Shown: positions 29,304-49,383 of the stretch, one piece after another
Position numbering within the stretch: position 1 is the first letter of the stretch
Layout of the letters: every line of letters begins with the position of its first letter
From: an uncultured Methanosarcinales archaeon
GTDB taxonomy: Archaea; Nanobdellota; Nanobdellia; Woesearchaeales; DSVV01
NCBI GenBank assembly: GCA_964469935.1
Contig: CAYXZQ010000002.1
Location: 319-64,318, forward strand
Length of the DNA: 64,000 nucleotides
Reading direction: 5' to 3'
Position numbers and translations under genes: made by a program
The notes under the pieces: generated by a model
What the model was told of the DNA's origin: nothing
The model's database searches: none
The model's input: the letters and a program-made list of their open reading frames with translations, nothing else

Positions 29304-31187
29304 TTAAATAGGTTGCGTGCTTGGCAGGTTTATCCTGTATATCCTTGCAGCCTCGAGACCCTGGTAATAGAAAGACTTCTCAAGCACCAGGTACTTGTCC
29401 AGCTGGTCGGACCAGGGATGCGTTATGTTGAGCTCCGGCTTGACCAGTAGCGCGTCATACTGCCTGTACTGGTCGCCCCTCAACGCGGGGTCCAGCCATG
29501 TGTGGACCTTCTGGAAGCTGACATTGTATTTCTGAAGGGTCTTCTCGTAGCCGTCCTTGTCGATTATGAGGATAGGGTCGGACAAGCCCACAATCTGCCC
29601 GTTGCCATCGAACTGGTACACGTTGCTCAGCCACCTGAAATGCCAGAACAGGTATCTGACATTGTCCTTCTTCAGAAGCTCAACCCTCTTGCTGTCGTCG
29701 TCACCATGCAGTATCAGGGCCGCGTCCATGTACCTCGAGTCGACGTCCACAAACATGCCGAAATGTGCCCTTCGCGAGGCGAGGAGCTTCCTTCCCGTGA
29801 GGGCATTGAGCATGAACCCGTCCTCGTTGTCTGTCAGGAACACGTCATCGACATTGGTGTTCTGGTCGACCCAGTTAGTTATGTCCTGTAGATATTGGGG
29901 CAGAGGCTGCTCTGCGCTCTGGAAGAACTGGGACTTTGTCTTTGACGCAGTGTACCCAAGGGCTCCTGCCGAGAGGACTATTATGAATATGAGGATGAAT
30001 GCATGCTCGCCGTATCTCTTTATCCGGGCGGACCTTGCCGACAGGGTGTTGTAGAGTATTATCAGCCCGAAGAACGGGACCACGAGCGAGAGGACTGTGA
30101 TAGGGGTGCCTCCCACTGCAGGAGTCAGCTCGGTCTTGAAGAGCGGTTCTGTGACTAGGATATGCGCATATCCTATGACTGCGGCTATGAATAGGAACAG
30201 CATGTATCTTATCTCCTCAGACCTTTTCCTGATGAGGATCATCCCGATGAATCCCACGTCGAACAACATGACGAATATCCCCGTGAGGACATTGCTGAAA
30301 TTTGGGATGAAGAGGTATGCGATGGACGAGTAGATAGATTTGATCTGGAGGAAGAACGTGTCTGCGATCGGGTAGTTGAAATCCTGGAGCCTATTCAGGA
30401 CATGAAGGTGCAGGACGAATATCGGGACGAACCAGTAGATTAGACCTATGCAAAAGCCGATGCAGAACACAGTGAGGAAATAGGAGAGATTTCTTCCAAG
30501 GTTCTTTTTGATTCCTGCTATGTCGATTTTTTTTCTGCCGATGTACTGTATGAATGTCTTGTATACGGCATACATCGCCAGGAGGAACGAAGCCCCGATG
30601 CCGGCAGCTGTGTGGGACAGCATCACAAGGCCGTAGGAGATTCCTGCGAATATGCTGTATTTAAGCTCCTTCTTATGATAGGCGTAGAAGAGGAGCATGA
30701 CGAAGAGCATCGATGTCATGGTCCTTGCTGCATGGTAATGGAAATAGAGGGAGTTGACATAAAGGCTGTAGGCTGCAAGGGTCAGGGCAAGTGTCCTCCT
30801 TTTGAGAAATACGATTCCAAGTAGATAGGACAGCACGCCTATTATGGGTGTCCACAGGATGTTCGAGTAGAAGATGCCCTTGATGAGGCTTATGTCGAAT
30901 ATCCTTGAGAATCCGATGACGATTAGGTGGTACAGCGGCGGAACCCATGGGTATGCGCCTGCTGCCTGGGAATTCTCCCAGATGGATCCCCCGTCGTTGA
31001 TGTGGTTCATCATGCCCAGGTGATAATAGTAGTCCCCGCCGTAAAGCGGGCTCGGGAGCTGTTTCAGCTGGTCCAATATCCCTATCTGGAGGGCCAAAAA
31101 AATCAATATGACGGCGACAAGCACCTTGTCCTGCCAGTTGCCTTTCAGAAAACGCCGGAACCTCTGTCCTTTGGCACTGTCTTTCAT
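29304..31187 (-). CDS. Polytopic GT-C-like membrane protein (627 aa).
   Basis: About 12 TM helices plus a C-terminal soluble domain. Its early loop 'YGGDYYYHLGMM' resembles the STT3 EL1 'DPYxYY' loop, but no WWDYG motif was found. Confidence 0.4.
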   Translation of the reverse strand: MKDSAKGQRFRRFLKGNWQDKVLVAVILIFLALQIGILDQLKQLPSPLYGGDYYYHLGMMNHINDGGSIWENSQAAGAYPWVPPLYHLIVIGFSRIFDISLIKGIFYSNILWTPIIGVLSYLLGIVFLKRRTLALTLAAYSLYVNSLYFHYHAARTMTSMLFVMLLFYAYHKKELKYSIFAGISYGLVMLSHTAAGIGASFLLAMYAVYKTFIQYIGRKKIDIAGIKKNLGRNLSYFLTVFCIGFCIGLIYWFVPIFVLHLHVLNRLQDFNYPIADTFFLQIKSIYSSIAYLFIPNFSNVLTGIFVMLFDVGFIGMILIRKRSEEIRYMLFLFIAAVIGYAHILVTEPLFKTELTPAVGGTPITVLSLVVPFFGLIILYNTLSARSARIKRYGEHAFILIFIIVLSAGALGYTASKTKSQFFQSAEQPLPQYLQDITNWVDQNTNVDDVFLTDNEDGFMLNALTGRKLLASRRAHFGMFVDVDSRYMDAALILHGDDDSKRVELLKKDNVRYLFWHFRWLSNVYQFDGNGQIVGLSDPILIIDKDGYEKTLQKYNVSFQKVHTWLDPALRGDQYRQYDALLVKPELNITHPWSDQLDKYLVLEKSFYYQGLEAARIYRINLPSTQPI

Positions 31188-31191
31188 TTTG

Positions 31192-34100
31192 TTATTTAGC
31201 GTCGATGAGCTTGACTATCTCGTAGCCGTAGGCGGTCTGAAACGGCTTTGAAACGTCTCCTACCTGCAGGCTGAAGACCTGGTCCTCGAATGCCTTCGGC
31301 ATGACCCCCCTTCCGAACCATCCCAGGTTGCACCTGACTGTCTCGTCGCTGCATTCTGAATACTGCTGAGCCAGCTCATCGAAATTGTCAGGGGTTATCA
31401 TGCCGTATATCTTGTCTGCAAGGGCCGATGCCTGCTCATCCGTCCTGTTTGAAGTGCTTATGAGTATATGTTCCACCTTTGCAAGGGTCTTCTCCTGGAT
31501 AGGGTCCTGTGTCGTGTTGCCGGGGGAAACTGCCTGCGAAGTGTCCGTGGTTGCCTGCTCTGTCTGCGATGAGGCAGTGTCGACAGCTGGGGCCTGGCTG
31601 ACGCTTGCATTCCTTCCTGCCCAGTCGACCTTCCACGTGATAATCTTCGCTCCGGTGATGTCCCTTACATTGTTGAAGGAGTCGAAATGGGTGAGTCCCG
31701 CACCCTCGAAATAGAACAGCCTCGTGAACATGCTTCCCGCAAGGTCAGCGTCCATCAGGACCGACTGGTAGGTCCCGCCGGACTCCACGATGGCTGCACC
31801 TAGCGGCCTTCCGTCCTGGGACGTGATGTAGTTGCCTGCGTACTGCTTGACCCTGAACTGCCCGTACTTGTCAATGAATGATATTGCCCTGACATTGAGC
31901 GACGTCCCCTGTACTGACGCCTCTTCGGTCGAGAGGTCGAACTGGAGGCCGTTGCTGCACGAGACTGTGTTATCGCTCACCGTGCACGCTGTGAGATCTC
32001 CTGCATAGCTCGGCCACGGCGCGATCCACTGGTCCGGGTCCGTGGTCTTTATTTGGTTGTAGATGCTGAGGGCTGCAGTGCTGTTCAGGCCAAAATTGTC
32101 CTCAAGGTATGAGACTCCGTCTATCTGGTTCTTGTTGTACACCTTGTTGTACTGCTCGGCTCTCGTGAAATTCCATGCGCCGAAATGCGCCCATACCCCC
32201 GACTTGCCGACCATGTCTTCGCTGGTTATGAAATAGTCTTCGGGCGGGCTGCAGTGGGTGTACTGCAACACGTCCTCTGCCTGCGCGTCTGTAAGGCCTT
32301 TTGAGAGCAGGACGCTCTTTGCAGATGCCCTGTCGAGCACGATTATCTGGTATATCGTATCTATTGTCTTCAGTGAGTCGTTGTCCATGTACGGGAGCAG
32401 TGTGTCGAAGCCCGTGTTGGAGCCGCAGTCGAGGTATCTCAGTATCCCCACTGATTCAGTCTCGTTCCATGTGAGCATGAGCTTGCCCAGCCAGTGGGCT
32501 GCGGGGTTGTTCTGCCTCCCTCCGTCAAGGGTCACCCTCCTGTCTCCGATGGCTGCGAACCAATGGCCGAAGTCCCACCATGAATTGATGATGGCGTCAG
32601 GCTTGGACTGGTCCTTTATCTTGGTCAGCGAGGAATACCAGCTGTCGTCCATCGTTGGCACCTCGTTGAGGGCCGTGGTCTTTGCAGCCGATACAATGTT
32701 GATGGGAAAGAACATGAGCGCGCAGAAGATGGCGATGATTGCGCCGTAGGCGAATATCTTGTTCACCGTAAGCTCCTTTGATATCCATTCCGAGACCTCG
32801 GTGGTGACGATACCGGCTGTTATCCCGCAGGCGATAGAATATGCCGGGACCAGGAGAAGGATGAACCTGACTCCTTTTGAGCTTGCATATATCGTCGAGG
32901 CGAACCAGATGGCAAGTATCAATGAATATCTTATGTCCAGCTCTGTTCCCACGACCATTGTGTACAGGATGTATCCAGCGATAGGCAGAAATATTAGCAC
33001 TGCATAAAGCAGCTGGCTCTTGACCGCGCCCTGTATTATTATTATGAACAGGTACCAAACAGCGCTTATGGCGAGGAAATAGAGGCTGTCCTTCTTTTCG
33101 GATTTGAGATTGCCGAGAGGGAGCACAAGGCCTATGAGAGCGATGAAGTACCATATCTTGCTCCCGAGGCTGATCTGGCTGATCGTCGAGTTGAGCGTGG
33201 CAGGATTCAGCTCGGCCACTGTCGTGTACACGTTCGGCCATATCTTCTGGACTCCCACCTGCTTGAGCTGGGTGAATCCTATGGTGCCCTGGAAGAAGTT
33301 TATGAAATCCCCCCATGATTTGATGAGGGTCACGAACAACGCTGACAGGATGAAGAATGCGGCTGTTATGAGGAGCGCGTTCTTAAGCCTCTCGATCGAA
33401 AGCATTTTTTTCGGATTTTTGAAGATTGCCTTGCGGTTCATTATCCCGTGGTATGCTATGATGCCGAGGAGCATCACGATTACGAAATCAAAGATGAAGT
33501 ACCACGCGGTCCACGCGAAGCTGAACAGCCCCACGCAGAAGGCCGCAAGCCCTGCAAGTATGATGGTCTTTGTCCTGCTCCTGCTGTTGAGGGCCTCGAG
33601 AAGGAGCCATGTTATCATTAGAGGGAAGAAGACGTTGTAGGCGTCGGTGTCTGAGAACCCGCCTATGGTCCTTGAAAGCAATGCAGGGTGGATGGCTATC
33701 AGGACACCTGCGATGAACCCGCCGAAATCACCGGCTATCCTTCTCGTTATGAAAAATGCCGGGATGATTATCAGAGTCCCGAAGATGAGCGGCGTGAAGA
33801 ACACCACGTACATGAGGTCGACGTTGGGATTGAATAGTGCTGCAATCCTGTACATGACATATTGCACCAGGACATGGAAGTGCACGATTCTCTTGTCAGT
33901 GCCCTTGCCCATCGGCTGGCCTGCGAGGACCTTCGTGTCATGATAATACCCGTCAGGGCTCTGGTAGTCCCCTTCAAAGCCGTGGTCGATGACGTCCTCT
34001 GTCATCCTGTAATAATAGTACGGGTCTATGGCAAGAAGATACGTGTGGCCGTAATCATTCTGGAACCTCGACCTGAAATATTCCGAGTTCTGGCTTATGA

Positions 34101-34452
34101 CCTGGGAGATATCTACGTTCTGGCCCTGGATGTTGATCTGTCCTGTCTGGAGTATCTGGCTGAACTGGTCATTGACTATCTGGTTCTTGTTGGTGTCGGG
34201 GAGATTAGGATACTGTGTGGAGACCTGGCTCTTTATTGTCGACTTGATATTGTTGTAGATGGTGTTCTGGGCCCACTGGTCCGTTATCGGCAGGTAAACC
34301 GGCATGGCCCTCAGGTAAATGCTCAGGATGATGGGGATCAGGATCAGTATTACTGTTATGGATTTCTTCATCAGGGCCTTGTTTGAGAAAAACCCTTTCA
34401 GCTTCTTCAGATCAAGGCTCAGTTCCTCTTCCTTCTCCTTACCCTTGGACAA
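31192..34452 (-). CDS. aglB: STT3/AglB-family oligosaccharyltransferase fused to a C-terminal parvulin-type peptidyl-prolyl isomerase domain (1086 aa).
   Basis: EL1 motif 'AIDPYYYYR' and 'SWWDFGHW' (WWDYG variant). A Ser/Thr/Gln-rich linker follows. The C-terminus 'EHILIS...LGWFGRGVMPKAFEDQVFSLQVGDVSKPFQTAYGYEIVKL' aligns with PpiC/parvulin. Confidence 0.8.
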   Translation of the reverse strand: MSKGKEKEEELSLDLKKLKGFFSNKALMKKSITVILILIPIILSIYLRAMPVYLPITDQWAQNTIYNNIKSTIKSQVSTQYPNLPDTNKNQIVNDQFSQILQTGQINIQGQNVDISQVISQNSEYFRSRFQNDYGHTYLLAIDPYYYYRMTEDVIDHGFEGDYQSPDGYYHDTKVLAGQPMGKGTDKRIVHFHVLVQYVMYRIAALFNPNVDLMYVVFFTPLIFGTLIIIPAFFITRRIAGDFGGFIAGVLIAIHPALLSRTIGGFSDTDAYNVFFPLMITWLLLEALNSRSRTKTIILAGLAAFCVGLFSFAWTAWYFIFDFVIVMLLGIIAYHGIMNRKAIFKNPKKMLSIERLKNALLITAAFFILSALFVTLIKSWGDFINFFQGTIGFTQLKQVGVQKIWPNVYTTVAELNPATLNSTISQISLGSKIWYFIALIGLVLPLGNLKSEKKDSLYFLAISAVWYLFIIIIQGAVKSQLLYAVLIFLPIAGYILYTMVVGTELDIRYSLILAIWFASTIYASSKGVRFILLLVPAYSIACGITAGIVTTEVSEWISKELTVNKIFAYGAIIAIFCALMFFPINIVSAAKTTALNEVPTMDDSWYSSLTKIKDQSKPDAIINSWWDFGHWFAAIGDRRVTLDGGRQNNPAAHWLGKLMLTWNETESVGILRYLDCGSNTGFDTLLPYMDNDSLKTIDTIYQIIVLDRASAKSVLLSKGLTDAQAEDVLQYTHCSPPEDYFITSEDMVGKSGVWAHFGAWNFTRAEQYNKVYNKNQIDGVSYLEDNFGLNSTAALSIYNQIKTTDPDQWIAPWPSYAGDLTACTVSDNTVSCSNGLQFDLSTEEASVQGTSLNVRAISFIDKYGQFRVKQYAGNYITSQDGRPLGAAIVESGGTYQSVLMDADLAGSMFTRLFYFEGAGLTHFDSFNNVRDITGAKIITWKVDWAGRNASVSQAPAVDTASSQTEQATTDTSQAVSPGNTTQDPIQEKTLAKVEHILISTSNRTDEQASALADKIYGMITPDNFDELAQQYSECSDETVRCNLGWFGRGVMPKAFEDQVFSLQVGDVSKPFQTAYGYEIVKLIDAK

Positions 34453-34635: not shown

Positions 34636-36411
34636 TTGCTGACTGAAACGAGCAAAGGGGTGACCATCTTGGTGAAGCATAAGAAGAAGAAGCATTCTGC
34701 CGGTAGATCAGCCTCAGAGAACACTGAGGGGCATGCAAATGCAAAAGAACATGCAAATGTTCATCCGGACAAAAGCCCGCACACCCACAGTGTGCACAAA
34801 AAAGAGCCTAAAAAAGCTCCAAACCCTTGGATATGGGTCGCAGCCGCTGTAGTCCTGATTCTCGCTGTATATGCGATATACAACATTGGTTCCGGGGAGA
34901 TAAAAGAGGACAATACAGGCAACACCGTCGCAACAGGGGCAGTGAATTTTGACCTCTATGTCATGAGCCAGTGCCCCTATGGCACACAGGTTGAGGATTC
35001 ACTCGCACCAGTCCTCAAGACGCTCGGAAACAACGTCGATTTAAGCCTGAACTACATTGCAAATGACAACGGTGACGGTTCTTTCACCAGCCTCCACGGG
35101 AATAATGAAGTGCTGGGCGACATAGTCCAGCTCTGTGCGCAGAAATACAATCCGGACAAGTACATGGATATGATTATATGCCAGAACAAGGACGCGAGTT
35201 CCATTCCTGGGAACTGGGAATCCTGCGCAACGGACAACGGGCTTGACGTCGACAAGATCAAGTCCTGCTACAAGGGAGATGAAGGCAAGCAGCTGCTGAG
35301 TGCAAGCATCAAGGAATCAGAGGACATCGGTGCTACAGGCAGCCCCACTATCTACATCAATAACAACAGCTATTCCGGTGCGAGGGGGCAGAACGATTTC
35401 ATGAGGGCGATATGCAACGCATACACGGGTACGAAGCCCTCGGCATGCGATGACATACCTGCTCCTGCTGAGGTCGACGTCATTGTCATAAATGACAAGC
35501 GGTGTTCAGAATGCGAAACCGGCATGACACAGCTTCTCGCCCAGCTCAAGAGCGTGTTCCCCGGCCTTAAAGTGACATCCTACGACTACAGCCAGCCCGA
35601 GGCAAAGACCCTCATGGCGCAGACAAATGTCAAGCTTCTGCCGGCCGTGCTGTTTGACGACAGCGTCACGAAGGACGAGAATTACGCCAATGTCGAGCAG
35701 TACTTGGTGCCCGCAGGCGATTACACTTCGCTCAGGATAGGTGCTGATTTCGACCCGTCAGCAGAGATATGCGACAATGGCATCGATGACACAGGCAACG
35801 GCCTCATCGATTGCCTGGATCCTGAATGCAACGGGACCATTGTCTGCAGGCAGGAGATTAAAGACGACCTGCAACTCTTCATAATGAGCGACTGCCCGTA
35901 CGGCAAGCAGGCTGTAATCGCCTTGAAGGATGTGATCGGAAATTTCGGAAGCGCTCTGAAATACGACATCCATTACATAGCAAGCGAGACGTCAAGCGGC
36001 TTTTCGAGCCTGCACGGCACCTATGAGGCTGACGAGGATATTGTCCAACTCTGCACAAAGAAGCATTCGCCGGACGTGTGGTTCGACTATGTCTACTGCA
36101 GGAGCGAGGAAGGCATCAAGGGGAATGACTGGCACAACTGCGCAGAGCAGACAGGCGTTGACATAGACGCAGTCGAGGCATGTATCAACGGCACCGAAGG
36201 TCCCTCTCTGCTGAGTCAGGACATAAAGATAGCTCAGGGGCTCTCGATCAGCGCTTCGCCCACATGGCTTGCGAACAACAAGTACATATTCAGCGGAATA
36301 GCTGCAGAGGCAGTCAAGTCGAGCTTCTGCAAGTACAACCCTGACCTCACAGGCTGCAACAACACGCTGTCATCGGCTTCAGGGACAGTTGCTTCAGGCG
36401 CGTGTGGCTAG
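34636..36411 (+). CDS. Membrane-anchored extracytoplasmic protein with a tandem-duplicated Cys-rich domain. Possibly a thiol-oxidoreductase-like fold.
   Basis: A His/Lys-rich N-terminus is followed by one TM helix. Two ~240-aa repeats each carry 'MS[QD]CPYG[TK]Q', 'SLHG...IVQLC' and 'W..C....G.D.D....C' motifs. The linker 'CDNGIDDTGNGLIDCLDPEC' looks like a Ca-binding DxDxDG motif. Confidence 0.5.
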   Translation: MLTETSKGVTILVKHKKKKHSAGRSASENTEGHANAKEHANVHPDKSPHTHSVHKKEPKKAPNPWIWVAAAVVLILAVYAIYNIGSGEIKEDNTGNTVATGAVNFDLYVMSQCPYGTQVEDSLAPVLKTLGNNVDLSLNYIANDNGDGSFTSLHGNNEVLGDIVQLCAQKYNPDKYMDMIICQNKDASSIPGNWESCATDNGLDVDKIKSCYKGDEGKQLLSASIKESEDIGATGSPTIYINNNSYSGARGQNDFMRAICNAYTGTKPSACDDIPAPAEVDVIVINDKRCSECETGMTQLLAQLKSVFPGLKVTSYDYSQPEAKTLMAQTNVKLLPAVLFDDSVTKDENYANVEQYLVPAGDYTSLRIGADFDPSAEICDNGIDDTGNGLIDCLDPECNGTIVCRQEIKDDLQLFIMSDCPYGKQAVIALKDVIGNFGSALKYDIHYIASETSSGFSSLHGTYEADEDIVQLCTKKHSPDVWFDYVYCRSEEGIKGNDWHNCAEQTGVDIDAVEACINGTEGPSLLSQDIKIAQGLSISASPTWLANNKYIFSGIAAEAVKSSFCKYNPDLTGCNNTLSSASGTVASGACG

Positions 36412-42005: not shown

Positions 42006-44218
42006 TTTTTTTCATTTACTTTCTCTTTGTCTTTAGTTTCTTGTACTGGAGCCCGGTGTCGCAGATGAGCCTTAAGAAAAGATACGCCTCGTTGATATTC
42101 TCATTGATATTGATTCTTGTATTCTTCTCAGCAGTTTCAGTTGCGACAGCTGGGGACTTCACCGCTTCGTCGAACCATGGGAGAATCACGCTCTGCAGGG
42201 GCGACATGTACCAGGACACTGTCACTGTCACCAGCACGGACCAGGCACCTGGGGCTTTTTCAGTATCGCCCTCCGAGAATTGGGCGCAGGTCGTCCCCCA
42301 GGGTTTCATCCTCGGGCCGGCAGGTGCGCAGGATGTTGTAGATTTCATCAGGCCCCCTCTGCAGGCAGGAACATATGAGCTCAGGACGACCATATCGTCC
42401 GGGACAGTAACAAAGGTCCTGACGCAGACAATAGAGGTCAGGGACTGCGAGAACACGAAGGTCCAGGTATTCCAGCAGGAAGCCACGATCTGCCCGTGCA
42501 CTCCCGCGCTGTACATATTCAACATAACCAATACAGGGACCTTCACCGATACCTATGACCTGGGCATCGATGCTGAACCGACATTCTACACCCTGAGCGA
42601 GAATCCGGTCGTCGTCAGACCCGGCAGGTCCAGGGCGGTCTATGCGTATTTCAACTTTCCCTGCAGCCAGTACGGCAGGGCGAGCATGCATTTCATCACA
42701 GAGGCAAGGCTTTCGGGCGAGAGGACAGAGACCGGCTTTAATATCGACATCAGTAGGGGATGTTACGATTACAGCCTGGATGCAGGGGATGCGTTAAATC
42801 TCAGCACAAACAAGACTTCGGCCAAGTTCGTCCCCTCTGCAAATGCAAAGTACAGCCTCTGTTACGGGACTGATTACGAGATACCTGTCAGGGTCAGGAA
42901 CACCGCGAATGTTAGCAACATATTCAGGTTGTCATCAGACCTCACGATCGACGGGAATAAAATGGAGATGCCTTCAGGGACGACTGCATACACGTATGTC
43001 CTTGTCCAGGGCATGGAGCCCGGATTCTATAACCGTATGATTAATTCAGTGTCCCTCAGGGGCAATATCGTCAAGAGCCTGCCCTTGGCGATAAACATAA
43101 GCCCGTGCGGGAATGCCAGCCTGTTGCAAGGACCCTCTGCGCAGTTCAGCGGGCTGAGAATAGCACTCTTTGTGCTTCTTGCTGTTTTGATTGTGCTTAT
43201 TGTCCTGTTTGCATTGATCTTCCCCAGGGCGAAGAGATGGCTCTGGAAAAGGGAGCAGAAAAGGCTGGCAGATGAAGGGTTGCAAGGCAGGGCAAGAAAG
43301 TTCCTTGCCGTGCATAAGAGACCGGTGACCGCCGTCATTGTCATACTGCTCCTTGTCCTTGTCACGATCGCTTCATATTACCTGCTGAGAAACCTGGGAA
43401 TAGACATGGTCGGGCTGGAATGGGGCATTCTAGGATCGATGTTCGCATTCGCTTCGCAGCATATGCTGTATGTGATTCTTGATATCGTGCTCCTTGCGAT
43501 AATCATCGCCTGCATCCTCTGGTTGCCGAAGCTGCTTGCCATGATGCAGAGAAGATGGAAGGAGAAGAGAGAAAGGGCGGACATCGTCCTTGAGAAGTAT
43601 CCGAAGGAGAGAAGCAGCAGCATGTGGATGTTTGTCGTTGTAATTGTCGTTGTGGTCTTCTTCCTATTGTCCTCGCTATGCTTCTTCACGACAGTCTGCA
43701 AAAATGCCGGCCTGAACATAGAGATAACGCATCCCGCGAACACGACCAACCAGACCCAGCTCAATGAGACTGCTGGTTATATCGTCGAGAATTCCACTGT
43801 CTACATATGGAACAAGAATACTGTAAAGGAGATTGACCTGTCAAGATACATAATCAACCAGGACAATGTTACGCTCCAGTACATATTCACCCCTGTAGAG
43901 AACATGACCGTGCAGATATCCGATCAGGGAATCGTGACACTTACTCCCGACAGGGGCTGGTTCGGCCACAGGGTGATGAACTTCATAATCGACGACGGAA
44001 GGGGGAACAGGGTGATAAGCCCTGATATAGACCTGTACGTTCTCGACGTCAATAGGACCTTTGCAGACCGGCTCACTGATTTCCTCGCTGTATATGTCAA
44101 TTACATCATAATCGGGCTCCTTTTCATTGTCATCGTCGTCATACTTCTGATATTGTTCACCAAGAAGCCGGGCAGGAAGAAAAGGATCCTCGTCAGGCGA
44201 AAGGGCCGGGACAGCTGA
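42002..44218 (+). CDS. Large polytopic surface/membrane protein (738 aa) with Cys-containing extracellular segments and many N-x-S/T sequons.
   Basis: N-terminal TM, then a roughly 330-aa extracellular region, then several TM helices, a second sequon-dense extracellular region ('NTTNQTQLNETAGYIVENSTVY') and a final TM. It overlaps the previous gene by 4 nt. Confidence 0.45.
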   Translation: MIFFIYFLFVFSFLYWSPVSQMSLKKRYASLIFSLILILVFFSAVSVATAGDFTASSNHGRITLCRGDMYQDTVTVTSTDQAPGAFSVSPSENWAQVVPQGFILGPAGAQDVVDFIRPPLQAGTYELRTTISSGTVTKVLTQTIEVRDCENTKVQVFQQEATICPCTPALYIFNITNTGTFTDTYDLGIDAEPTFYTLSENPVVVRPGRSRAVYAYFNFPCSQYGRASMHFITEARLSGERTETGFNIDISRGCYDYSLDAGDALNLSTNKTSAKFVPSANAKYSLCYGTDYEIPVRVRNTANVSNIFRLSSDLTIDGNKMEMPSGTTAYTYVLVQGMEPGFYNRMINSVSLRGNIVKSLPLAINISPCGNASLLQGPSAQFSGLRIALFVLLAVLIVLIVLFALIFPRAKRWLWKREQKRLADEGLQGRARKFLAVHKRPVTAVIVILLLVLVTIASYYLLRNLGIDMVGLEWGILGSMFAFASQHMLYVILDIVLLAIIIACILWLPKLLAMMQRRWKEKRERADIVLEKYPKERSSSMWMFVVVIVVVVFFLLSSLCFFTTVCKNAGLNIEITHPANTTNQTQLNETAGYIVENSTVYIWNKNTVKEIDLSRYIINQDNVTLQYIFTPVENMTVQISDQGIVTLTPDRGWFGHRVMNFIIDDGRGNRVISPDIDLYVLDVNRTFADRLTDFLAVYVNYIIIGLLFIVIVVILLILFTKKPGRKKRILVRRKGRDS

Positions 44219-44277: not shown

Positions 44278-44427
44278 GGGGGCGTAGTTTAACCTGGCTA
44301 GAATAACTGGCTCCAGTGCTCTGGAGCGATGAGGGGAAGCGATTTCCCGATGACTTTAGGTCTGGTATGGCTCTTTTTTAAGGGCGAGAGATACCAGTTG
44401 ATCTGGGTTCAAATCCCAGCGTCCCCA
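44278..44427 (+). tRNA. tRNA-Trp (anticodon CCA) interrupted by a ~76-nt intron at the canonical 37/38 position (about 44317-44392).
   Basis: Acceptor GGGGGCG pairs with CGUCCCC (one G-U pair). U8 is present. D-arm GUUU/AACCUGGCUA/GAAU. Anticodon stem ACUGG/CCAGU. The anticodon loop C-U-C-C-A-G|intron|A is the canonical tRNA-Trp loop CUCCAGA. The T-arm is CUGGG-UUCAAAU-CCCAG and the discriminator is A. Confidence 0.6.
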
Positions 44428-44576: not shown

Positions 44577-46508
44577 CTAGAATCCGGGCGGTGAGTTGCC
44601 GTCGTCGCGTTTTTGAGGGGCCTGGGGCATCCTTTGCTGGAGTTTCCTGTGTATCCTGCTGGTTATGACCAGGTTGGAGATGTTGACGACGATGAGGAAC
44701 AGTATGACTGCAAGGTATATTATCTCGTTCGAATGGCTTCTTATGCCCGATATTATGGTTATGATGGGCGATGTGAATGCGCCGTCGACCTTGAGCGGGT
44801 CTAAACCCACGATGTATAGGTCAGTGACCCTGTATGGGCCTGTGCCGTTGACCTTGTACGAGAGGTCCCAGCTGTAGTTTGCAGGCGCTGTGGCGTCAGG
44901 CCCGAACTTCGGCCCGAGGGACGAGTTCATGGTCCCTTTCCATTGTATGTCCCACCTGTAGGACATGCCGTAATAGTCGCTTCCCGGGCTCCCGACCGAA
45001 AGGTTCGAGCAGCCGCTCCCTCCAAGTGCGCACGAGTAGTAAGATGGTGACATGTTCCAGATTCCGAAGTCGTTCGGGACAAAGTCGTACACAGTCACCT
45101 TCTCGAACTGCGGGGTCCAGCCGTTTCCGATATTCTCGACGTGTATCTTGACCTGGTACTGGTCCTCTCCTATGTTGGTTATGTTCTTGGCGATCTGGAG
45201 CCAGTAGCCGTGGACGACGTAGATGTACTTGAGGTATGTGTCATTGCCGCTGACGCTCATTGTGTAGTTTACGATCTGGCCGGACATGTCGGAAATCAGG
45301 TATTCCGGTTTCATCCAGACGATGGGCGGCGGATACGCCGAGCTTGAGCCGTCTGTGTAGTTGAATGTCCATACGTAGCTGGAGTTCCCCCATGGCTTTG
45401 TTATGTTTATCTCCTGGAGCGGCGAGCCTGTGAAATTTTTTCCCAAGAGCCCCCATAGGGTCCCGGCAGTCGTGTTTGTCGGGTCCTGGTTCTGCGTGAC
45501 CCATAGCGAAACCTTGTTGAGATTATAGGATATGTTCACGGGGACTGTCACCCTCGGCGTGATCTCCCAGGTCACATTATGGTTCTGCTCGTTGTCGCTC
45601 GGCTTGATTATCCGCTTGTCGAAGTCGAAATCGACCTGGGAGCTGGCGTTTATGTCGTCTATCGTCAGGTTCGAGAGCAGGGTGTTGACCACCAGGAATT
45701 CAACCCTCTCTTTGAGGGCAAGGTATGTGGCAGTGAACGGGACGCTCAGCGGAGCGGTCATATTGTACCTGATGCTTGTGTTCCTGTGCCATGCAATCGT
45801 CCCGCCGCTGGGTGCCCACCACCAGGAGACATTGGATGTCCCGTTCCCATGGACATTGGCAAAATCCTTGTATGGATACAGGTTATTGAGATAGAAGCTG
45901 AACTGTGTCGAATTCCATACCACGTCTGCGGCAGTCATCGAGATGTTTATGTTCGTTACGCTTACGTTTATCTGGTTGTCGTTTCTCACAGTCTGGTTGA
46001 TTGTCCATTCATGGCCTGAAAGCACCTTCCTGTCGAAACCGTGCTCGAAATTATAGTAGTTAGTTATGACGTTCACAGGCGGGTCGACGCCCATGCACGA
46101 TATATTGTACCTGAATAATGAATTATCGCCCTGTCTCAGTTCAGGTACAAACAGTATTATCTCTGTTCCTGGCTGGCCTGATGTCTGGTTGCCGAACTTT
46201 GTAGTGTTGTCCCAGGTGAAGTTTGTCGAAAGTCCGCCTGTGTTCCTGAATGACACATGTATGTCATAAATTGTCTCATTGTTCGGGTTTGTGATGTTCA
46301 CTGTTCCAAGGCTGTAGCACGATTTCTGCCATTCAGTGAGCGTGAAGTTCTCTGCAAAGCTTGTCTGCTGGAAGACCTGTTCTGTGATGGAGACATTGAT
46401 GTGAGTGCCGAAATCCGCGCTCACGTTGAAGAAGCACATGATGAAGAAGAGTATGGAGCAAAAGAATAGAACGAGCCTGCCCTTATTCCTCTTTTTTAGG
46501 GGATTCAT
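44577..46508 (-). CDS. S-layer-like surface glycoprotein candidate with a signal peptide, about 34 N-glycosylation sequons and a C-terminal TM anchor with a basic tail.
   Basis: N-terminal 'LVLFFCSILFFIMCFFNVSA'. N-x-S/T motifs counted by eye, for example 'NFTWDNTTKFGNQTSG' and 'NVSVTNINISMT'. C-terminal 'IIYLAVILFLIVVNISNLVI' followed by 'RIHRKLQQR'. A TATA-rich region lies upstream at 46509-46594. Confidence 0.6.
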   Translation of the reverse strand: MNPLKKRNKGRLVLFFCSILFFIMCFFNVSADFGTHINVSITEQVFQQTSFAENFTLTEWQKSCYSLGTVNITNPNNETIYDIHVSFRNTGGLSTNFTWDNTTKFGNQTSGQPGTEIILFVPELRQGDNSLFRYNISCMGVDPPVNVITNYYNFEHGFDRKVLSGHEWTINQTVRNDNQINVSVTNINISMTAADVVWNSTQFSFYLNNLYPYKDFANVHGNGTSNVSWWWAPSGGTIAWHRNTSIRYNMTAPLSVPFTATYLALKERVEFLVVNTLLSNLTIDDINASSQVDFDFDKRIIKPSDNEQNHNVTWEITPRVTVPVNISYNLNKVSLWVTQNQDPTNTTAGTLWGLLGKNFTGSPLQEINITKPWGNSSYVWTFNYTDGSSSAYPPPIVWMKPEYLISDMSGQIVNYTMSVSGNDTYLKYIYVVHGYWLQIAKNITNIGEDQYQVKIHVENIGNGWTPQFEKVTVYDFVPNDFGIWNMSPSYYSCALGGSGCSNLSVGSPGSDYYGMSYRWDIQWKGTMNSSLGPKFGPDATAPANYSWDLSYKVNGTGPYRVTDLYIVGLDPLKVDGAFTSPIITIISGIRSHSNEIIYLAVILFLIVVNISNLVITSRIHRKLQQRMPQAPQKRDDGNSPPGF

Positions 46509-46594: not shown

Positions 46595-46936
46595 TCAGCT
46601 GATTCCAACCAAATCCCCTGTTTTCGATTTGGAACCTGATATTACGCCCTTTCTGGCTTCGATTACGTATTTTGCCTTGTTTTTCGACGTGTAGAAAGTA
46701 AACGGCAGGAAATTCTCCTTTAAGTCGACTATCTTCTTATCCCTGTCCAGGAAGATGACATCGATGGGAAAGAACACGAAGAACATGTGAAGGGATATTC
46801 TCCTCTCCTTCTCGAATATGAACAGGAGGCTCTTTTTGGGCGAGAACATGAGCCCCCTTGCCTTCTCGGGAACGCTCCTGCATTCGGTGAATTCCCCTGC
46901 GATGAGCTTTCCGCTTGTCAGATTCATTATCGCCAT
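46595..46936 (-). CDS. DUF192-family small protein.
   Basis: 113 aa. 'GLMF...LLFIF......ISLHM.FV.FPIDVIFLDRDKKIV' matches the COG1430/DUF192 pattern. Confidence 0.5.
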   Translation of the reverse strand: MAIMNLTSGKLIAGEFTECRSVPEKARGLMFSPKKSLLFIFEKERRISLHMFFVFFPIDVIFLDRDKKIVDLKENFLPFTFYTSKNKAKYVIEARKGVISGSKSKTGDLVGIS

Positions 46937-49383
46937 TTTACCAGGTAGGCGACTGTCCTCAGGGTCTCAGGTCGCGAATTGTCGGCGATGAGCCTGAAAT
47001 CATCAAGGCCATAGCCGTCGAGGACCATCAGCCTTATGTACGTGCTGTCAGCGATGTTCTTGTCGACCACGATCGCGTTGTATTTGTCGCTTCTTGGATA
47101 GATAACCATCGTGTATTCTGACTTGCTGTCATAGCTGAACCTGGTCAGGTTCCCGTCGATGAAGAACCAGAGCCCTGCCAGGTCGACATTGTTATGTCCC
47201 GTCCTAGAGTTGGCAGTGACTTGCGTGCTCCCGACACTGCATGTGAACGTATCATTATCCCTGCTGCAGTCGTAGGCTGTGAAGGCCTTGTAGGTCTTCT
47301 GCTCGTCGCTCGGCAGGTCGAAATCCCAGTATGCGTACTCCTGAACAGTATGGAAGCGGGTGAACATGTCGTCTGTCAGCGCGATATAGGTGACAGGGGC
47401 ATCACAGTGGGTGTATCTGGTGATCCGCCTGTCCTGATTGTTCTGGGCCAGGTATTCGTCAGCCTCTGTCTTGTTGAGCTTCAGGATGCTGTCAAGTACG
47501 CCAATCTTCCCGTTCATCGAGAGGTTGCCCTTCACAAGGCTGAGCGCCTTCTTCTCGCCGTTGCATGAAAGCATCCGGATGATGCCTGCGGAAAGGTTCT
47601 CGTCCGGTGTCATCAGGGCCTTGGCCATCCAGTAGGTCCTTGGCATGCTCGGAGCTGCCTTGAGAAGGACGTCCCTGTCAGACAATGCATAGAAGAAATG
47701 GCCTTTGTCCCACCAGGTGAATATCTTGGCATCAGGAGGGCTTACCTCCCCTATCTTCACGGCAGTGTTGTACAATGAGTCGTCCATCCTGGGCTTGATG
47801 CTCCTGACCGAGCTGTAGTCGGCCATGAACTGGCTCCCGATTATGAAGAGCAGAAGGGCTATGACCAGCACATAGGCAAGCGACCTGATGATGGTGTCCT
47901 TCTGGTCTATCCAATGGATGAATCTCGGTATCGAGTCAATTATCAAAAAAAGGCCGAACCCGAAAAGTATGCATATGTATGGGATGGAGAAAGGGAATAT
48001 CCTTATCGCCTTGAAAGCGGCGGGTATCATGATTGCTGCCGCTGTCAGTGCGAGCAATGGGCCGAAGGGTATGTCCTCCGAATCCGCAGCCCTCCAGAAT
48101 GTATAGGCAGCAGCCAGGAGCACTATCGCCAAAAATACCGGCCCTCCGAGCCTCGGGACCATGTCGCTGAAAGGGAGAGGCTGGAGCTCTGAGATTGATG
48201 AATAGCTGTCCGGCCATACCCCCTGCAGGCTGCCAGAGCCAAGATAAAGCTGTATCTTGGCAGGCATGAAGCCTATGAGAAACTTGAGTCCCAGCAGCAC
48301 TGCGATGACGATTATCAGGCAGACCAACACAAGATAAGCGATGCGCCCATTCGTTGTCTTGTCGGCTGTCAGCTTATTGAAGAGCCAGAGGCCGAGATAG
48401 ACAGCTGAGATGGCAGCAAGCAGGCCTATGACTATGTAATACCCTGTCCACGTGAACCTGAAGAGGAGAAGGAGCAGGACCAGTGATGCCCCTGCTATAA
48501 TCCTGTTCCTCAGCTTTTTCTGGAGAATCAGTTCAAGGAACACCCACGATATCGCGAGCATGAAGAATATGTTGATGGTATTGGTATCGCTCATCCCTGC
48601 AAGGCTGTACTTGAGGAATTCAGGGTGTATGGCAAAGGTTGCGGATGCGATTAAGCCTGCCAGGTCTCCTGCAATCCTCCTTGCAATGAAATATATAGGG
48701 AACATGGTCAATGCCACGAATATCAGCGGGATGTAGAAGCTTGTCGTCATCATTGACACGGTTTTGTTGAAAAGGGAGATGAAATTATGGAAGTAATACT
48801 CGAAGAAAGACAGGAAATCCTCGAGTTTCCCGTCCTTTGCGTTCTTGTAGTAGCTGTAGGGGTCTATGCCGTAGAGGTATATCTGCCCCTGCGGATCCCT
48901 GAAGCTGTCCCTGAGGCTTTCGGCCTTCTGGGCGATCTGCGCCTGGTACTGGTCTATCTTTTCCTTGACCTGCTGGTCTATGAGCTTGGTCTTCTGGTCA
49001 TCGCTGTAATAGGGGTACATCTGGTTGACGTCCTGTGTTATCTGCGGCCTGAATGTGGCGTCGGCAGACATCCTAGCCCAGTCATCCATGAGCGGGAGGC
49101 CTGCGTAATGCAGCCTTACGCCTACTGAGAGGATGATGGACAGGATGATGAAGATGACAGGGGCATATCTCCTGAACCAGGCAGGTGTCTTGAAGGCCTT
49201 GTGGTCTTCCCTTGCCTTCTTCTTTTTTGGACTGCGGGAATGTCTCTTCTTCACCTTCGGCTTTGGCTTCGGCTTATTCATCGCCTTTGACGCAATCTCC
49301 TGCTGCTTCTTCCTTATCATGTCTGCGCGCAGCTCGTTGCTGATGTCTGTGTCCCCTATGTTGTCCATGGGAAATGAAATCAT
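46927..49383 (-). CDS. aglB: Second STT3/AglB-family oligosaccharyltransferase paralog (818 aa) with a Lys/Pro-rich cytoplasmic N-terminus.
   Basis: EL1 'YGIDPYSYYK'. 'TWWDKGHFF' is a WWDYG variant. 13 or more TM helices plus a C-terminal soluble domain. The N-terminus reads 'KPKPKPKVKKRHSRSPKKKKARED'. Confidence 0.75.
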   Translation of the reverse strand: MISFPMDNIGDTDISNELRADMIRKKQQEIASKAMNKPKPKPKVKKRHSRSPKKKKAREDHKAFKTPAWFRRYAPVIFIILSIILSVGVRLHYAGLPLMDDWARMSADATFRPQITQDVNQMYPYYSDDQKTKLIDQQVKEKIDQYQAQIAQKAESLRDSFRDPQGQIYLYGIDPYSYYKNAKDGKLEDFLSFFEYYFHNFISLFNKTVSMMTTSFYIPLIFVALTMFPIYFIARRIAGDLAGLIASATFAIHPEFLKYSLAGMSDTNTINIFFMLAISWVFLELILQKKLRNRIIAGASLVLLLLLFRFTWTGYYIVIGLLAAISAVYLGLWLFNKLTADKTTNGRIAYLVLVCLIIVIAVLLGLKFLIGFMPAKIQLYLGSGSLQGVWPDSYSSISELQPLPFSDMVPRLGGPVFLAIVLLAAAYTFWRAADSEDIPFGPLLALTAAAIMIPAAFKAIRIFPFSIPYICILFGFGLFLIIDSIPRFIHWIDQKDTIIRSLAYVLVIALLLFIIGSQFMADYSSVRSIKPRMDDSLYNTAVKIGEVSPPDAKIFTWWDKGHFFYALSDRDVLLKAAPSMPRTYWMAKALMTPDENLSAGIIRMLSCNGEKKALSLVKGNLSMNGKIGVLDSILKLNKTEADEYLAQNNQDRRITRYTHCDAPVTYIALTDDMFTRFHTVQEYAYWDFDLPSDEQKTYKAFTAYDCSRDNDTFTCSVGSTQVTANSRTGHNNVDLAGLWFFIDGNLTRFSYDSKSEYTMVIYPRSDKYNAIVVDKNIADSTYIRLMVLDGYGLDDFRLIADNSRPETLRTVAYLVKWR

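What the first reader, a model, noticed from the sequence alone, without database searches (positions are those of the whole stretch)
29304..49383. Two STT3/AglB paralogs plus two additional GT-C-like proteins in one locus
Seen in sequence: AglB-1 (31192-34452) and AglB-2 (46927-49383) both have DPY.YY(R/K) and WWD(F/K)G motifs. They differ strongly in length, termini (Lys/Pro-rich N-terminus in copy 2, parvulin in copy 1) and soluble domain. A 627-aa GT-C-like protein with an STT3-like 'GDYYYH' loop but no WWDYG lies at 29304-31187. An ArnT-like GT-C lies at 62583 to the window end. Inference: several OSTs may have different glycan or acceptor specificities (for example two glycans, or N- versus O-linked), as seen in some archaea and Campylobacter-like systems.
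Basis: partly seen in the sequence, partly recalled or inferred. Interest (0 to 1): 0.65.

Follow-up and report, generated by a model that had tools for sequence, protein, structure and literature searches.

The report
Two diverged archaeal N-glycosylation enzymes, one locus
A DPANN (Woesearchaeota-type) archaeon carries, about 12 kb apart, a standard protein N-glycosylating enzyme fused to a protein-folding domain and a rare, anciently diverged second copy that sits next to a surface protein with 35 glycosylation sites, so the cell probably runs two non-redundant glycosylation routes.

Summary
ORFs 31192-34452(-) and 46927-49383(-) are both true STT3/AglB proteins. The 627-aa ORF is a GT-C fold protein, and the ORF at 62583 to the window end is a PMT_2/ArnT-type GT-C.

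The paralogs are old: 24% identical, both under purifying selection. AglB-1 is the mainstream Woesearchaeal type (DTD, TVAE, WWDFG, MxxK) with a C-terminal parvulin domain. It is followed by the 627-aa GT-C, beside a methyltransferase, a small GT2 and GtrA.

AglB-2 belongs to a rare clade with 100/100 bootstrap support. It keeps all acceptor-side catalytic residues but changes donor/metal-side motifs (DTD to DTN, WWDFG to WWDKG, DG lost, MxxK to MxxR). It overlaps a DUF192 gene. In five lineages it precedes a conserved 643-aa membrane-anchored protein with 35 sequons, 27 of them conserved, near PAPS-synthesis genes.

Best reading: two functional OSTs, with AglB-2 specialised in donor use and tied to that glycoprotein. 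The other two GT-Cs lack OST motifs and are more likely lipid-phosphate-sugar transferases.

Multiple AglB paralogs are already known. The AglB-2 motif set, the DUF192 linkage and the AglB-PPIase fusions appear undescribed. All functional claims are inference.

The parts
31192..34452 (-). AglB-1: mainstream Woesearchaeal STT3/AglB oligosaccharyltransferase, 1086 aa. Key residues: D143, D268-T-D270, E414, R529, W625-W-D-F-G629, D643-G-G-R, M747xxK750xxxW754.
   Evidence: Pfam STT3 4.1e-42. More than 1000 homologs, named Woesearchaeota/Nanoarchaeota where named. Motif positions.
31198..31494 (-). C-terminal parvulin-type PPIase domain of AglB-1 (aa 987-1085), joined by a Ser/Thr/Gln/Ala-rich linker. 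It should lie outside the cell, like the AglB globular domain.
   Evidence: Pfam Rotamase 1.5e-19 and Rotamase_3 1.1e-19. PDB parvulins Ess1 and archaeal PpiC at about 8e-11. First His (H995) and Cys (C1034) are kept; the second His is Glu (E1078) in the closest clade.
29304..31187 (-). 627-aa GT-C fold glycosyltransferase of an unnamed family. It starts 5 nt after the end of AglB-1. Invariant EL1 Asp in GGDYYYH (D52). No second DXD and no WWDxG.
28641..29279 (-). SAM-dependent methyltransferase downstream of the 627-aa GT-C.
   Evidence: Pfam Methyltransf_23 3.4e-20. Same position in L011.
27943..28620 (+). 225-aa GT2, the size and type of polyprenyl-phosphate-sugar synthases (GtrB/DPMS/AglD-like). 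Candidate maker of the Dol-P-sugar donor.
   Evidence: Pfam Glycos_transf_2 4.9e-26. Conserved next to GtrA in L011. Function inferred.
27392..27868 (-). GtrA-family small membrane protein, a candidate flippase partner for lipid-P-sugar.
   Evidence: Pfam GtrA_DPMS_TM 2.2e-20. Conserved in L011.
34636..36411 (+). Membrane-anchored protein with two GILT/DsbA-like thioredoxin domains (CPYG motifs), transcribed divergently from AglB-1.
   Evidence: Pfam GILT 8.8e-23 and DSBA 3.4e-10. Sequence. Same divergent position in L011 and L019.
46927..49383 (-). AglB-2: divergent STT3/AglB paralog, probable start at 49368, 813 aa. Key residues: D169, D261-T-N263, E394, R456, W552-W-D-K555-G, M668xxR671xxxV. 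Basic cytoplasmic N-terminal tail.
46595..46936 (-). DUF192 (COG1430) protein, 113 aa, no signal peptide. Its start overlaps the AglB-2 stop by 10 nt.
   Evidence: Pfam DUF192 5.2e-17. Overlap visible. Follows AglB-2 in L001-L006 and in the 34%-identical L014. Precedes the 643-aa protein's ortholog in L016.
44577..46508 (-). 643-aa predicted surface glycoprotein: signal peptide, ectodomain of about 580 aa, C-terminal TM anchor and basic tail. 35 N-X-S/T sequons. An AT-rich TATA-like sequence lies upstream.
   Evidence: 35 sequons against 10.2 expected. Orthologs are 63-86% identical, with 27 sequons conserved in all five. PF27408 AF2028_C is recorded for the orthologs. No hit in the local Pfam, NCBIfam or PDB copies. 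Upstream sequence.
49475..51571 (.). NTP-transferase (49475-50107, +), APS kinase (50108-50698, -) and CysQ-like PAP phosphatase (50777-51571, -): sugar-activation and PAPS genes flanking AglB-2.
   Evidence: Pfam NTP_transf_3 1.6e-14, APS_kinase 1.7e-63, Inositol_P 2.3e-62. The same genes lie near AglB-2 or the 643-aa ortholog in L003, L005/L006 and L016, with a sulfotransferase in L003.
62583..64000 (-). PMT_2/ArnT-type GT-C glycosyltransferase. Its N-terminus is cut by the window end. A GDE loop motif is present.
   Evidence: Pfam PMT_2 1e-12, 49 bits against a cutoff of 26.1. Weak NCBIfam Agl23 hit at 1.3e-8, below cutoff. Sequence.
40695..44218 (+). Two conserved surface or membrane proteins between the two AglB genes: a 436-aa putative S-layer-like protein and a 738-aa sequon-rich protein.
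   Evidence: NCBIfam PACE-CTERM putative S-layer protein 3.1e-31, 108.8 bits against a cutoff of 110. 13 sequons against 4.9 expected in the 738-aa protein. Orthologs in L012 and L013.

Best explanation
The locus is a cell-surface glycosylation island of a Woesearchaeota-type DPANN archaeon. It encodes two functional, anciently diverged, non-redundant N-oligosaccharyltransferases.

AglB-1 is the lineage's general OST. Its extracellular C-terminus carries a parvulin domain. It is co-transcribed with an unnamed GT-C enzyme. That enzyme, together with the adjacent small GT2, GtrA and methyltransferase, most likely adds or modifies a sugar outside the cell from a dolichyl-phosphate-monosaccharide donor. 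This logic resembles the Gtr, ArnT and AglS systems.

AglB-2 keeps the sequon-binding and Asn-activating apparatus but has a rebuilt donor/metal side (DxN, WWDKG, loss of DG). It is translationally coupled to DUF192. It most likely transfers a different lipid-linked glycan, possibly a sulfated one, chiefly onto the adjacent, very conserved 35-sequon membrane-anchored surface protein.

Shown: family membership, motif states, phylogenetic separation, purifying selection and conserved synteny. Inferred: catalytic activity, donor difference, substrate dedication and sulfation.
For: - Both proteins pass the STT3 model. AglB-2 folds as a complete OST.
- The EL1 Asp, first EL2 Asp, EL5 Glu, WWD and the Arg equivalent to PglB R375 are kept in all 263 relatives surveyed, including the AglB-2 clade.
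- The two paralogs are 24% identical and collinear.
- The DxN/DxQ clade is monophyletic in 100/100 NJ bootstraps, and the core WWDKG group in 97/100.
- dN/dS is 0.097 for AglB-2, 0.102 for AglB-1, 0.118 for the GT-C and 0.047 for the 643-aa protein.
- The order AglB-2, DUF192, 643-aa protein is conserved in five lineages. The DUF192 link extends to a 34%-identical relative.
- The 643-aa protein has 35 sequons, 27 of them conserved.
- PAPS genes recur nearby.
- The arrangement GILT, AglB-1-parvulin, GT-C is conserved in three lineages. AglB followed by the GT-C is also seen in L010.
- The GT-C fold of the 627-aa protein is closest to the lipid-P-sugar-dependent AftA and Pmt4.
- AfAglB is active with Asp-His-His as its second DXD motif (PMC8342417).
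Against: - There is no biochemical or glycoproteomic data for this lineage.
- AglB-2 lacks the second acidic residue of DXD and the DG of the DGGK-type motif. That motif is reported as essential in PglB (cited in PMC8342417).
- In one lineage (L016) the DUF192 plus 643-aa pair has no AglB-2 within 6 kb upstream. In L014 an AglB-2-like gene plus DUF192 has no 643-aa homolog nearby.
- Distant homologs of the 627-aa GT-C are not next to AglB.
- The DG(x)(x) motif is loosely conserved even in mainstream Woesearchaeal AglBs, so its loss carries limited weight.
- The tree is distance-based, and dS is saturated.
- The AF2 coordinates could not be inspected, so active-site geometry is unverified.
Confidence: 0.55

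Rival explanations
1. AglB-2 uses the same glycan donor as AglB-1 but differs in when or where it acts. One enzyme would be co-translocational and the other post-translocational, or AglB-2 would be tuned to the densely spaced sequons of one client. This would parallel mammalian STT3A and STT3B.
For: Both have the same basic-type Ser/Thr pocket. AglB-2 alone has a long basic cytoplasmic N-terminal tail, and AglB-1 alone has the PPIase domain. STT3A/B and T. brucei STT3A-C are precedents (PMC3703281).
Against: The motif changes cluster on the side assigned to the metal and lipid-linked donor, not the peptide side (PMC8342417). No unusual sequon context was found in the linked protein. Separate sugar-activation and PAPS genes flank AglB-2.
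Confidence: 0.2
2. AglB-2 is a catalytically inactive pseudo-OST. It would bind sequons or lipid-linked glycans and act as a chaperone or assembly factor for the 643-aa protein.
For: DTD is changed to DTN, a Lys is inserted into WWDxG, and the DG motif is lost. The gene is tightly linked to a single client gene.
Against: Every residue known to activate the acceptor Asn or bind Ser/Thr is invariant: D169, E394, WWD, R456, M/R. dN/dS is about 0.10, the same as AglB-1. A non-acidic metal ligand at the same position exists in active AfAglB. The model shows the full OST fold.
Confidence: 0.08
3. The 627-aa and/or PMT_2 GT-C proteins are themselves protein glycosyltransferases, for example O-OSTs or O-mannosyltransferase-like enzymes. 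The locus would then hold three or four protein-directed transferases.
Against: Both lack WWDxG and the second DXD. The best structural match of the 627-aa protein is AftA, which acts on a glycan, not a protein. Its neighbours (small GT2, GtrA, and UGDH/epimerase in relatives) fit a Gtr/Arn-type glycan-decorating system.
Confidence: 0.12
4. AglB-2 is a dispensable, recently acquired or redundant extra copy with no distinct role.
For: Very few close homologs exist in public data.
Against: The same two-AglB architecture is conserved in at least three lineages whose AglB-2 proteins are only 45-69% identical. The clade is old and well supported. The gene is under purifying selection.
Confidence: 0.05

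Closest known systems
Multiple AglB paralogs in Euryarchaeota (Archaeoglobus fulgidus AglB-L/S1/S2; Methanosarcina mazei AglB-1/2/3)
   Same: Several STT3-family catalytic subunits occur in one archaeal genome. [quoted passage not shown] That rule also holds here, with K and R.
   Different: Here the second copy carries a correlated motif switch (DxN, WWDKG, no DG) and a fixed DUF192 partner. It is adjacent to a hyper-sequon client gene. The first copy is fused to a PPIase. The lineage is DPANN, and the roles of the euryarchaeal paralogs are themselves unknown.
Eukaryotic STT3 paralogs (mammalian STT3A/STT3B; Trypanosoma brucei STT3A/B/C)
   Same: Paralogous OST catalytic subunits with different donor and/or acceptor preferences or timing (PMC3703281).
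   Different: These are single-subunit archaeal enzymes. No accessory subunits are known, and specificity is untested.
Haloferax volcanii and Halobacterium salinarum dual N-glycosylation pathways, and AglS
   Same: Two N-glycans made by separate pathways decorate one S-layer glycoprotein (PMC11407970; PMC6098224). From general knowledge: sulfated glycans occur in Hbt. salinarum, and AglS is a Dol-P-mannose-dependent GT-C that finishes the glycan outside the cell.
   Different: In Hfx. volcanii the second pathway is AglB-independent and its transferase is unknown. Here a second bona fide AglB is present. The 627-aa GT-C is not a detectable sequence relative of a named family.
Gtr (GtrA/GtrB/Gtr-type GT-C) and ArnC/ArnT lipid-P-sugar decoration systems of bacteria; mycobacterial AftA
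   Same: A small GT2, a GtrA-family membrane protein and a GT-C transferase are encoded together. The GT-C is structurally closest to AftA. Relatives sit beside UDP-glucose dehydrogenase and epimerase genes, as in arn operons.
   Different: The setting is archaeal, and the GT-C is co-transcribed with an OST. Acceptor and sugar are unknown. There is no sequence-level family membership.
Extracytoplasmic parvulin foldases (PrsA, SurA) and thioredoxin-type OST subunits (Ost3/Ost6, MagT1/TUSC3)
   Same: A PPIase domain of PrsA/Pin1 type would be exposed outside the membrane. A thioredoxin-fold protein is encoded next to the OST. This matches the idea of coupling glycosylation to folding.
   Different: Here the PPIase is covalently fused to the OST. 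In other Woesearchaeota it is replaced by an FKBP domain at the same position. The second catalytic His is Glu. The thioredoxin protein has CPYG rather than CXXC motifs. No physical association has been shown.

Membership tests
STT3/AglB/PglB oligosaccharyltransferase catalytic subunit | Significant match to the STT3 family model | tested here: met
   AglB-1 scores 145.6 bits and AglB-2 59.3 bits against a cutoff of 24.5. The 627-aa protein has no match.
STT3/AglB/PglB oligosaccharyltransferase catalytic subunit | Overall architecture: multi-spanning GT-C membrane domain plus a C-terminal globular core domain, closest to solved OSTs | tested here: met
STT3/AglB/PglB oligosaccharyltransferase catalytic subunit | First DXD-type Asp in external loop 1 | tested here: met
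   D143 in AglB-1 and D169 in AglB-2. Asp occupies this column in 262 of 263 relatives.
STT3/AglB/PglB oligosaccharyltransferase catalytic subunit | Second DXD motif in external loop 2 (metal ligands) | tested here: inconclusive
   AglB-1 has D268-T-D270, so the feature is met. AglB-2 has D261-T-N263: the first Asp is kept and the third position is Asn, invariant in its clade. AfAglB uses Asp-His-His with the His as a metal ligand (PMC8342417), so a non-acidic third residue is compatible with activity. Asn itself is untested.
STT3/AglB/PglB oligosaccharyltransferase catalytic subunit | TIXE/SVSE motif Glu in external loop 5 | tested here: met
   T-V-A-E414 in AglB-1 and S-I-S-E394 in AglB-2. 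Glu occupies this column in 263 of 263 relatives.
STT3/AglB/PglB oligosaccharyltransferase catalytic subunit | WWDYG motif | tested here: met
   WWDFG in AglB-1 and WWDKG in AglB-2, so Trp-Trp-Asp and Gly are kept. The fourth residue is known to vary (PMC11407970). Lys or Arg there is confined to the AglB-2 clade. The 627-aa protein has TDNEDGF at the equivalent place by eye, so the feature is not met there.
STT3/AglB/PglB oligosaccharyltransferase catalytic subunit | DK or MI motif forming the Ser/Thr pocket | tested here: met
   M747xxK750xxxW in AglB-1 and M668xxR671xxxV in AglB-2. The AglB-2 motif aligns to the C. lari PglB MI motif. It is a hybrid M-x-x-(K/R) form. The position has not been checked in 3D.
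STT3/AglB/PglB oligosaccharyltransferase catalytic subunit | DGGK-type motif after WWDYG (presumed donor binding) | tested here: not met
   This verdict applies to AglB-2, which has L-K-A-A-P with a one-residue deletion. AglB-1 has DGGR. The motif is only DG-x-x in most Woesearchaeal AglBs, so it is a weak criterion in this lineage.
STT3/AglB/PglB oligosaccharyltransferase catalytic subunit | Transfer of a lipid-linked glycan to Asn of N-X-S/T | not testable with these tools
   Needs enzyme assays or glycoproteomics.
GT-C fold glycosyltransferases (lipid-phosphate-sugar dependent) | GT-C membrane fold with a conserved acidic residue in the first external loop | tested here: met
PMT_2 / ArnT-like GT-C (GT39/GT83-type) | Match to the PMT_2 model above its curated cutoff, plus a loop-1 acidic motif | tested here: met
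   49 bits against a cutoff of 26.1 once the ORF is read to the window end. A GDE sequence lies near the N-terminus. The N-terminus is truncated by the window. Specific assignment (ArnT, PMT or Agl23) is not resolved; the Agl23 hit is below cutoff.
Parvulin-type peptidyl-prolyl isomerase | Rotamase domain with active-site His, Cys/Asp and His | tested here: inconclusive
   The domain match is strong (71 bits). H995 and C1034 align with Pin1 H59 and C113, but the Pin1 H157 position is Glu (E1078) in the closest clade and His in other fusions.

The most novel reading that the evidence does not exclude
AglB-2-type proteins may be an undescribed OST subclass. Their signature is DxN/DxQ in place of the second DXD, a Lys or Arg inside WWDxG, loss of DG, and obligate pairing with DUF192. 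In this reading the donor/metal site has been rebuilt to accept a chemically different lipid-linked glycan, for example a sulfated or otherwise anionic one, or one on a different phosphate linkage. The enzyme would serve essentially one hyper-glycosylated surface protein.

In parallel, the mainstream Woesearchaeal AglB would be a minimal OST-foldase machine. It is fused convergently to parvulin or FKBP domains and paired with a thioredoxin-fold protein, which is functionally analogous to eukaryotic OST-oxidoreductase complexes.
Probability: 0.25. Interest if true: 0.75.

Novelty: new variant of a known kind. Interest (0 to 1): 0.55.

Why it matters
What distinct jobs multiple AglB paralogs do in one archaeon is an open question (PMC3703281). 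Here the genome context supplies a concrete, testable pairing. One paralog carries a defined set of active-site substitutions, and it sits beside one candidate client protein with 27 conserved sequons, an uncharacterised partner (DUF192) and PAPS genes.

This could show which residues set donor specificity in OSTs, which is useful for glyco-engineering. It could also give DUF192 its first functional context.

The recurrent fusion of AglB to two unrelated PPIase folds suggests that coupling N-glycosylation to protein folding arose independently in DPANN archaea. Cell surfaces are central to the host-dependent lifestyle of DPANN archaea.

Tried and rejected
- **The 643-aa protein.** The local Pfam and NCBIfam copies gave nothing. 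PDB sequence and profile searches gave nothing. A literature search for 'AF2028' returned only unrelated catalogue numbers.
- **Structure library.** The AFDB50 fold library was unavailable.
- **Extended sequon.** I looked for a pattern such as the bacterial D/E at -2 in the 34 sequons of the 643-aa protein and found none. A different acceptor consensus was therefore dropped.
- **Promoter scan.** The sigma-70 promoter and terminator scan is not meaningful for an archaeon. I used only the visible AT-rich TATA-like boxes.
- **Rooting.** Midpoint rooting made the non-DxD group look paraphyletic. Rooting on AglB-1 showed this to be a rooting artefact, and bootstrap then gave 100/100.
- **Recent duplication or transfer.** Rejected.
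- **Universal linkage.** A metagenome scan from the 643-aa side found only three loci. One (L016) lacks AglB-2 within 6 kb, so I do not claim universal linkage.
- **Other membrane ORFs without Pfam hits.** The 510-aa ORF has 12 TM segments and looks flippase-like. The 432-aa ORFs are soluble. None looked like an additional GT-C, judged from TM counts alone.
- **Literature.** Searches for AglB with parvulin or peptidyl-prolyl, for WWDKG and for DUF192 found nothing relevant.

Full report
**Origin and setting.** The window matches a 64,495-nt NCBI contig. AglB-1 is 100% identical to P0001. Its homologs, where named, come from Candidatus Woesearchaeota, Nanoarchaeota or Nanobdellota. The closest relative (75% identity) lies on a 1.84-Mb chromosome titled 'uncultured Candidatus Woesearchaeota archaeon' (OY970338.1). 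An intron-containing tRNA fits an archaeon. Almost the whole window is a glycan and cell-surface island. It holds two NeuB genes, a CMP-sugar transferase, GDP-mannose dehydratase, epimerases, several GT2 and GT4 enzymes, an AsnB-like amidotransferase, methyltransferases and a 12-TM flippase-like protein.

**Checking the observation.** All four ORFs are present at the stated coordinates.
- AglB-1 (31192-34452, -) scores STT3 4.1e-42 and has a C-terminal parvulin domain at 1.5e-19.
- The quoted motifs are exactly as described.
- The last ORF runs off the window. Read to the end it passes the PMT_2 cutoff with 49 bits.

**How the two AglBs relate.** They are collinear but only 24% identical. I aligned 263 Woesearchaeal-type STT3 proteins taken from two searches.
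- The mainstream form is IDPY / DTD / (T)VAE / WWDFG / DG-x-x / DMxxKxxxW. AglB-1 is a typical member.
- AglB-2 falls in a group of 27 cluster representatives. All have Asn or Gln at the third position of the second DXD. Most have Lys or Arg inside WWDxG. The inner clade has lost the DG motif and uses MxxR.
- This group is monophyletic in 100 of 100 NJ bootstrap replicates. The core WWDKG group is monophyletic in 97 of 100.
- The EL1 Asp, the first Asp of EL2, the EL5 Glu, Trp-Trp-Asp and the Arg equivalent to PglB R375 are kept in every member.
- Against the orthologs in OY970338.1, dN/dS is 0.097 for AglB-2 and 0.102 for AglB-1. dS is saturated, so these are rough values, and saturation would if anything overstate the ratio.

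AglB-2 is therefore an old, constrained paralog. It is neither a recent duplicate nor a decaying gene.

One acidic residue is indeed replaced (D to N263). In the AfAglB crystal structure, however, the second 'DXD' is Asp161-His162-His163, and His163 is a metal ligand (PMC8342417). A non-acidic ligand at this position is thus compatible with activity. The residues proposed to activate the acceptor amide are intact: the first DXD Asp and the TIXE Glu (same paper). I rate the pseudo-enzyme reading as unlikely (0.08) but not excluded.

**DK/MI motif check.** The PglB MI motif (M-x-x-I) aligns with M668-F-T-R671 of AglB-2. The same column in AglB-1 reads M747-V-G-K750. Both paralogs therefore have a hybrid M-x-x-(K/R) motif, which is a basic-type Ser/Thr pocket. 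This agrees with the published rule that paralogs in one organism share the pocket type (PMC3703281). It argues against a different sequon rule. The 34 sequons of the linked client protein show no extended consensus. The differences between the paralogs lie in motifs assigned to metal and lipid-linked donor binding: the second DXD and the DGGK motif (PMC8342417). The WWDxG fourth residue also differs, but I found no stated donor-side role for it. This is why I favour a donor difference. That step is inference.

**Gene neighbourhood of AglB-2.**
- The AglB-2 stop overlaps the start of a DUF192 gene by 10 nt.
- Downstream, after an AT-rich TATA-like spacer, lies a 643-aa protein with a signal peptide and a C-terminal membrane anchor. 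It has 35 N-X-S/T sequons against 10.2 expected.
- The order AglB-2, DUF192, 643-aa protein recurs in all five lineages for which AglB-2 orthologs were found (38-69% identity).
- The 643-aa protein is better conserved than the enzyme (63-86% identity). 27 of its sequons are conserved in all five orthologs.
- An AglB-2-like gene of 34% identity still has DUF192 behind it, but no 643-aa homolog nearby (L014).
- From the other side, a 59%-identical ortholog of the 643-aa protein has DUF192 and PAPS genes directly upstream but no AglB-2 within 6 kb (L016). The linkage is strong but not absolute.
- APS kinase and a CysQ-like phosphatase flank AglB-2 in the window. They recur in L003 (with a sulfotransferase), L005/L006 (the CysQ-like gene only) and L016. 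This suggests sulfated glycans, which is inference.
- DUF192 has no known function. Only structural-genomics entries 3pjy and 3m7a exist.

**Gene neighbourhood of AglB-1.**
- The 627-aa GT-C starts 5 nt after AglB-1. A methyltransferase follows it.
- A 225-aa GT2 and a GtrA-family protein lie next door.
- A membrane-anchored double GILT/DsbA-like thioredoxin protein is transcribed divergently.
- The arrangement GILT, AglB-1-parvulin, GT-C is conserved in the 1.84-Mb chromosome and in a third lineage. In that third lineage AglB-2, the surface proteins and RelA/Kae1 also occupy the same relative positions. An AglB without parvulin is also followed by the GT-C in L010.
- More distant homologs of the GT-C (about 34% identity or less) are not next to AglB. 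L007 and L008 place it beside UDP-glucose dehydrogenase and epimerase genes, and L008 also has a small GT2 and an LPG_synthase_TM protein. L009 shows neither AglB nor these sugar genes.
- Profile comparison detects homology to AglB only over TM3-5. The AglB DTD position has no counterpart in the GT-C, and no WWDxG is present.
- These points, together with the AftA and Pmt4 structural matches, favour a lipid-phosphate-monosaccharide-dependent transferase that decorates a glycan or another acceptor outside the cell. This resembles the Gtr, ArnT and AglS systems. It does not favour a third OST.

**PPIase fusion.**
- About 20 of the top 120 AglB-1 homologs carry the C-terminal parvulin domain.
- Two others (P0090, P0094) carry an FKBP domain at the same C-terminal position. 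Two unrelated PPIase folds have therefore been fused to this OST.
- In AglB-1 the first His and the Cys of the parvulin site are kept, but the second His is Glu. Activity is therefore uncertain.
- No paper in the searchable library mentions AglB together with parvulin, and none of the three hits for AglB with peptidyl-prolyl is relevant.

**Comparison with what is known.** Multiple AglB or STT3 paralogs are well documented: A. fulgidus, Methanosarcina, mammals and T. brucei (PMC3703281). Dual N-glycosylation pathways on one S-layer protein are known in haloarchaea (PMC11407970, PMC6098224). The bare finding of two AglBs plus other GT-Cs is therefore a known kind of arrangement. Three things appear new:
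- the AglB-2 subclass signature (no literature hit for WWDKG);
- its coupling to DUF192 and to a single hyper-sequon client;
- the AglB-PPIase fusions with a thioredoxin neighbour.

I classify the finding as a new variant of a known kind and score its interest as moderate.

**Limits.**
- No function was measured.
- The tree is NJ on a MAFFT alignment, without outgroups from other phyla.
- The AF2 coordinates could not be inspected, so the spatial roles of N263 and K555 are unverified.
- The synteny sample is small, at five to seven lineages.
- The NCBI titles of two related contigs say 'Methanosarcinales', although the gene order of one (L013) matches the Woesearchaeota chromosome.
- Alignment A2 and the GT-C model lack Met1, so their residue numbers are one lower than ORF numbers.

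Noticed in passing
31198-31494 (-); relatives P0090, P0094: Woesearchaeal AglBs carry C-terminal PPIase domains of two unrelated folds. About 20 of the top 120 homologs have parvulin. Two have FKBP at the same position. The fusion looks convergent, and no relevant literature was found.
   Followed up: partly
34636-36411 (+): A membrane-anchored protein with two GILT/DsbA-like thioredoxin domains, with CPYG in place of CXXC. It is transcribed divergently from AglB-1, and the arrangement is conserved in two related genomes (L011, L019). It may be an extracellular thiol-redox partner of the OST-PPIase fusion.
   Followed up: partly
37440-39473 (+): A long RelA/SpoT homolog (HD, RelA_SpoT, TGS and ACT domains) in a DPANN archaeon. 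It is conserved in related genomes (L001, L002, L019). From general knowledge, long RSH enzymes are unusual in archaea.
   Followed up: no
44278-44427 (+): A tRNA spanning 150 nt, presumably intron-containing, found by the Rfam model (47.6 bits). ARAGORN missed it.
   Followed up: no
19877-21765 (-): A UbiA-family prenyltransferase, a GT2 and DUF2304 lie together in the glycan island, and the same module is present in L011. It is reminiscent of polyprenyl-phosphate-(phospho)ribose donor synthesis, which feeds AftA/Emb-type GT-Cs. The 627-aa GT-C is structurally closest to AftA.
   Followed up: no
5769-8580 (-): Two adjacent NeuB paralogs plus a CMP-sugar cytidylyltransferase. This suggests synthesis of one or two nonulosonic acids, which could feed two different glycans.
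   Followed up: no
50108-51571 (-); L003, L016: APS kinase and a CysQ-like PAP phosphatase lie next to AglB-2. The same genes, plus a sulfotransferase in L003, recur next to AglB-2 or the 643-aa protein in relatives. This hints at glycan sulfation.
   Followed up: partly
40695-44218 (+): A 436-aa protein scores just under the cutoff of NCBIfam 'PACE-CTERM putative S-layer protein' (3.1e-31). The neighbouring 738-aa protein has 13 sequons against 4.9 expected. Both are conserved in relatives, between the two AglB genes.
   Followed up: partly
61408-62532 (-): A radical SAM/SPASM enzyme lies directly downstream of the PMT_2-type GT-C on the same strand. An LPG_synthase_TM protein and two methyltransferases lie beyond it, on the opposite strand. 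The purpose is unknown.
   Followed up: no
L013, L014 (related contigs): The NCBI record titles call these MAGs 'Methanosarcinales'. L013 nevertheless shares gene order and 45-65% identical proteins with the Woesearchaeota chromosome OY970338.1. The taxonomic label is probably wrong.
   Followed up: no
51900-54485 (+): An 861-aa protein with no family hit. It contains three internal repeats of about 130 aa (motif DSMDNYLLWNN...YDYQMSIDD), and the N-terminal part looks secreted.
   Followed up: no
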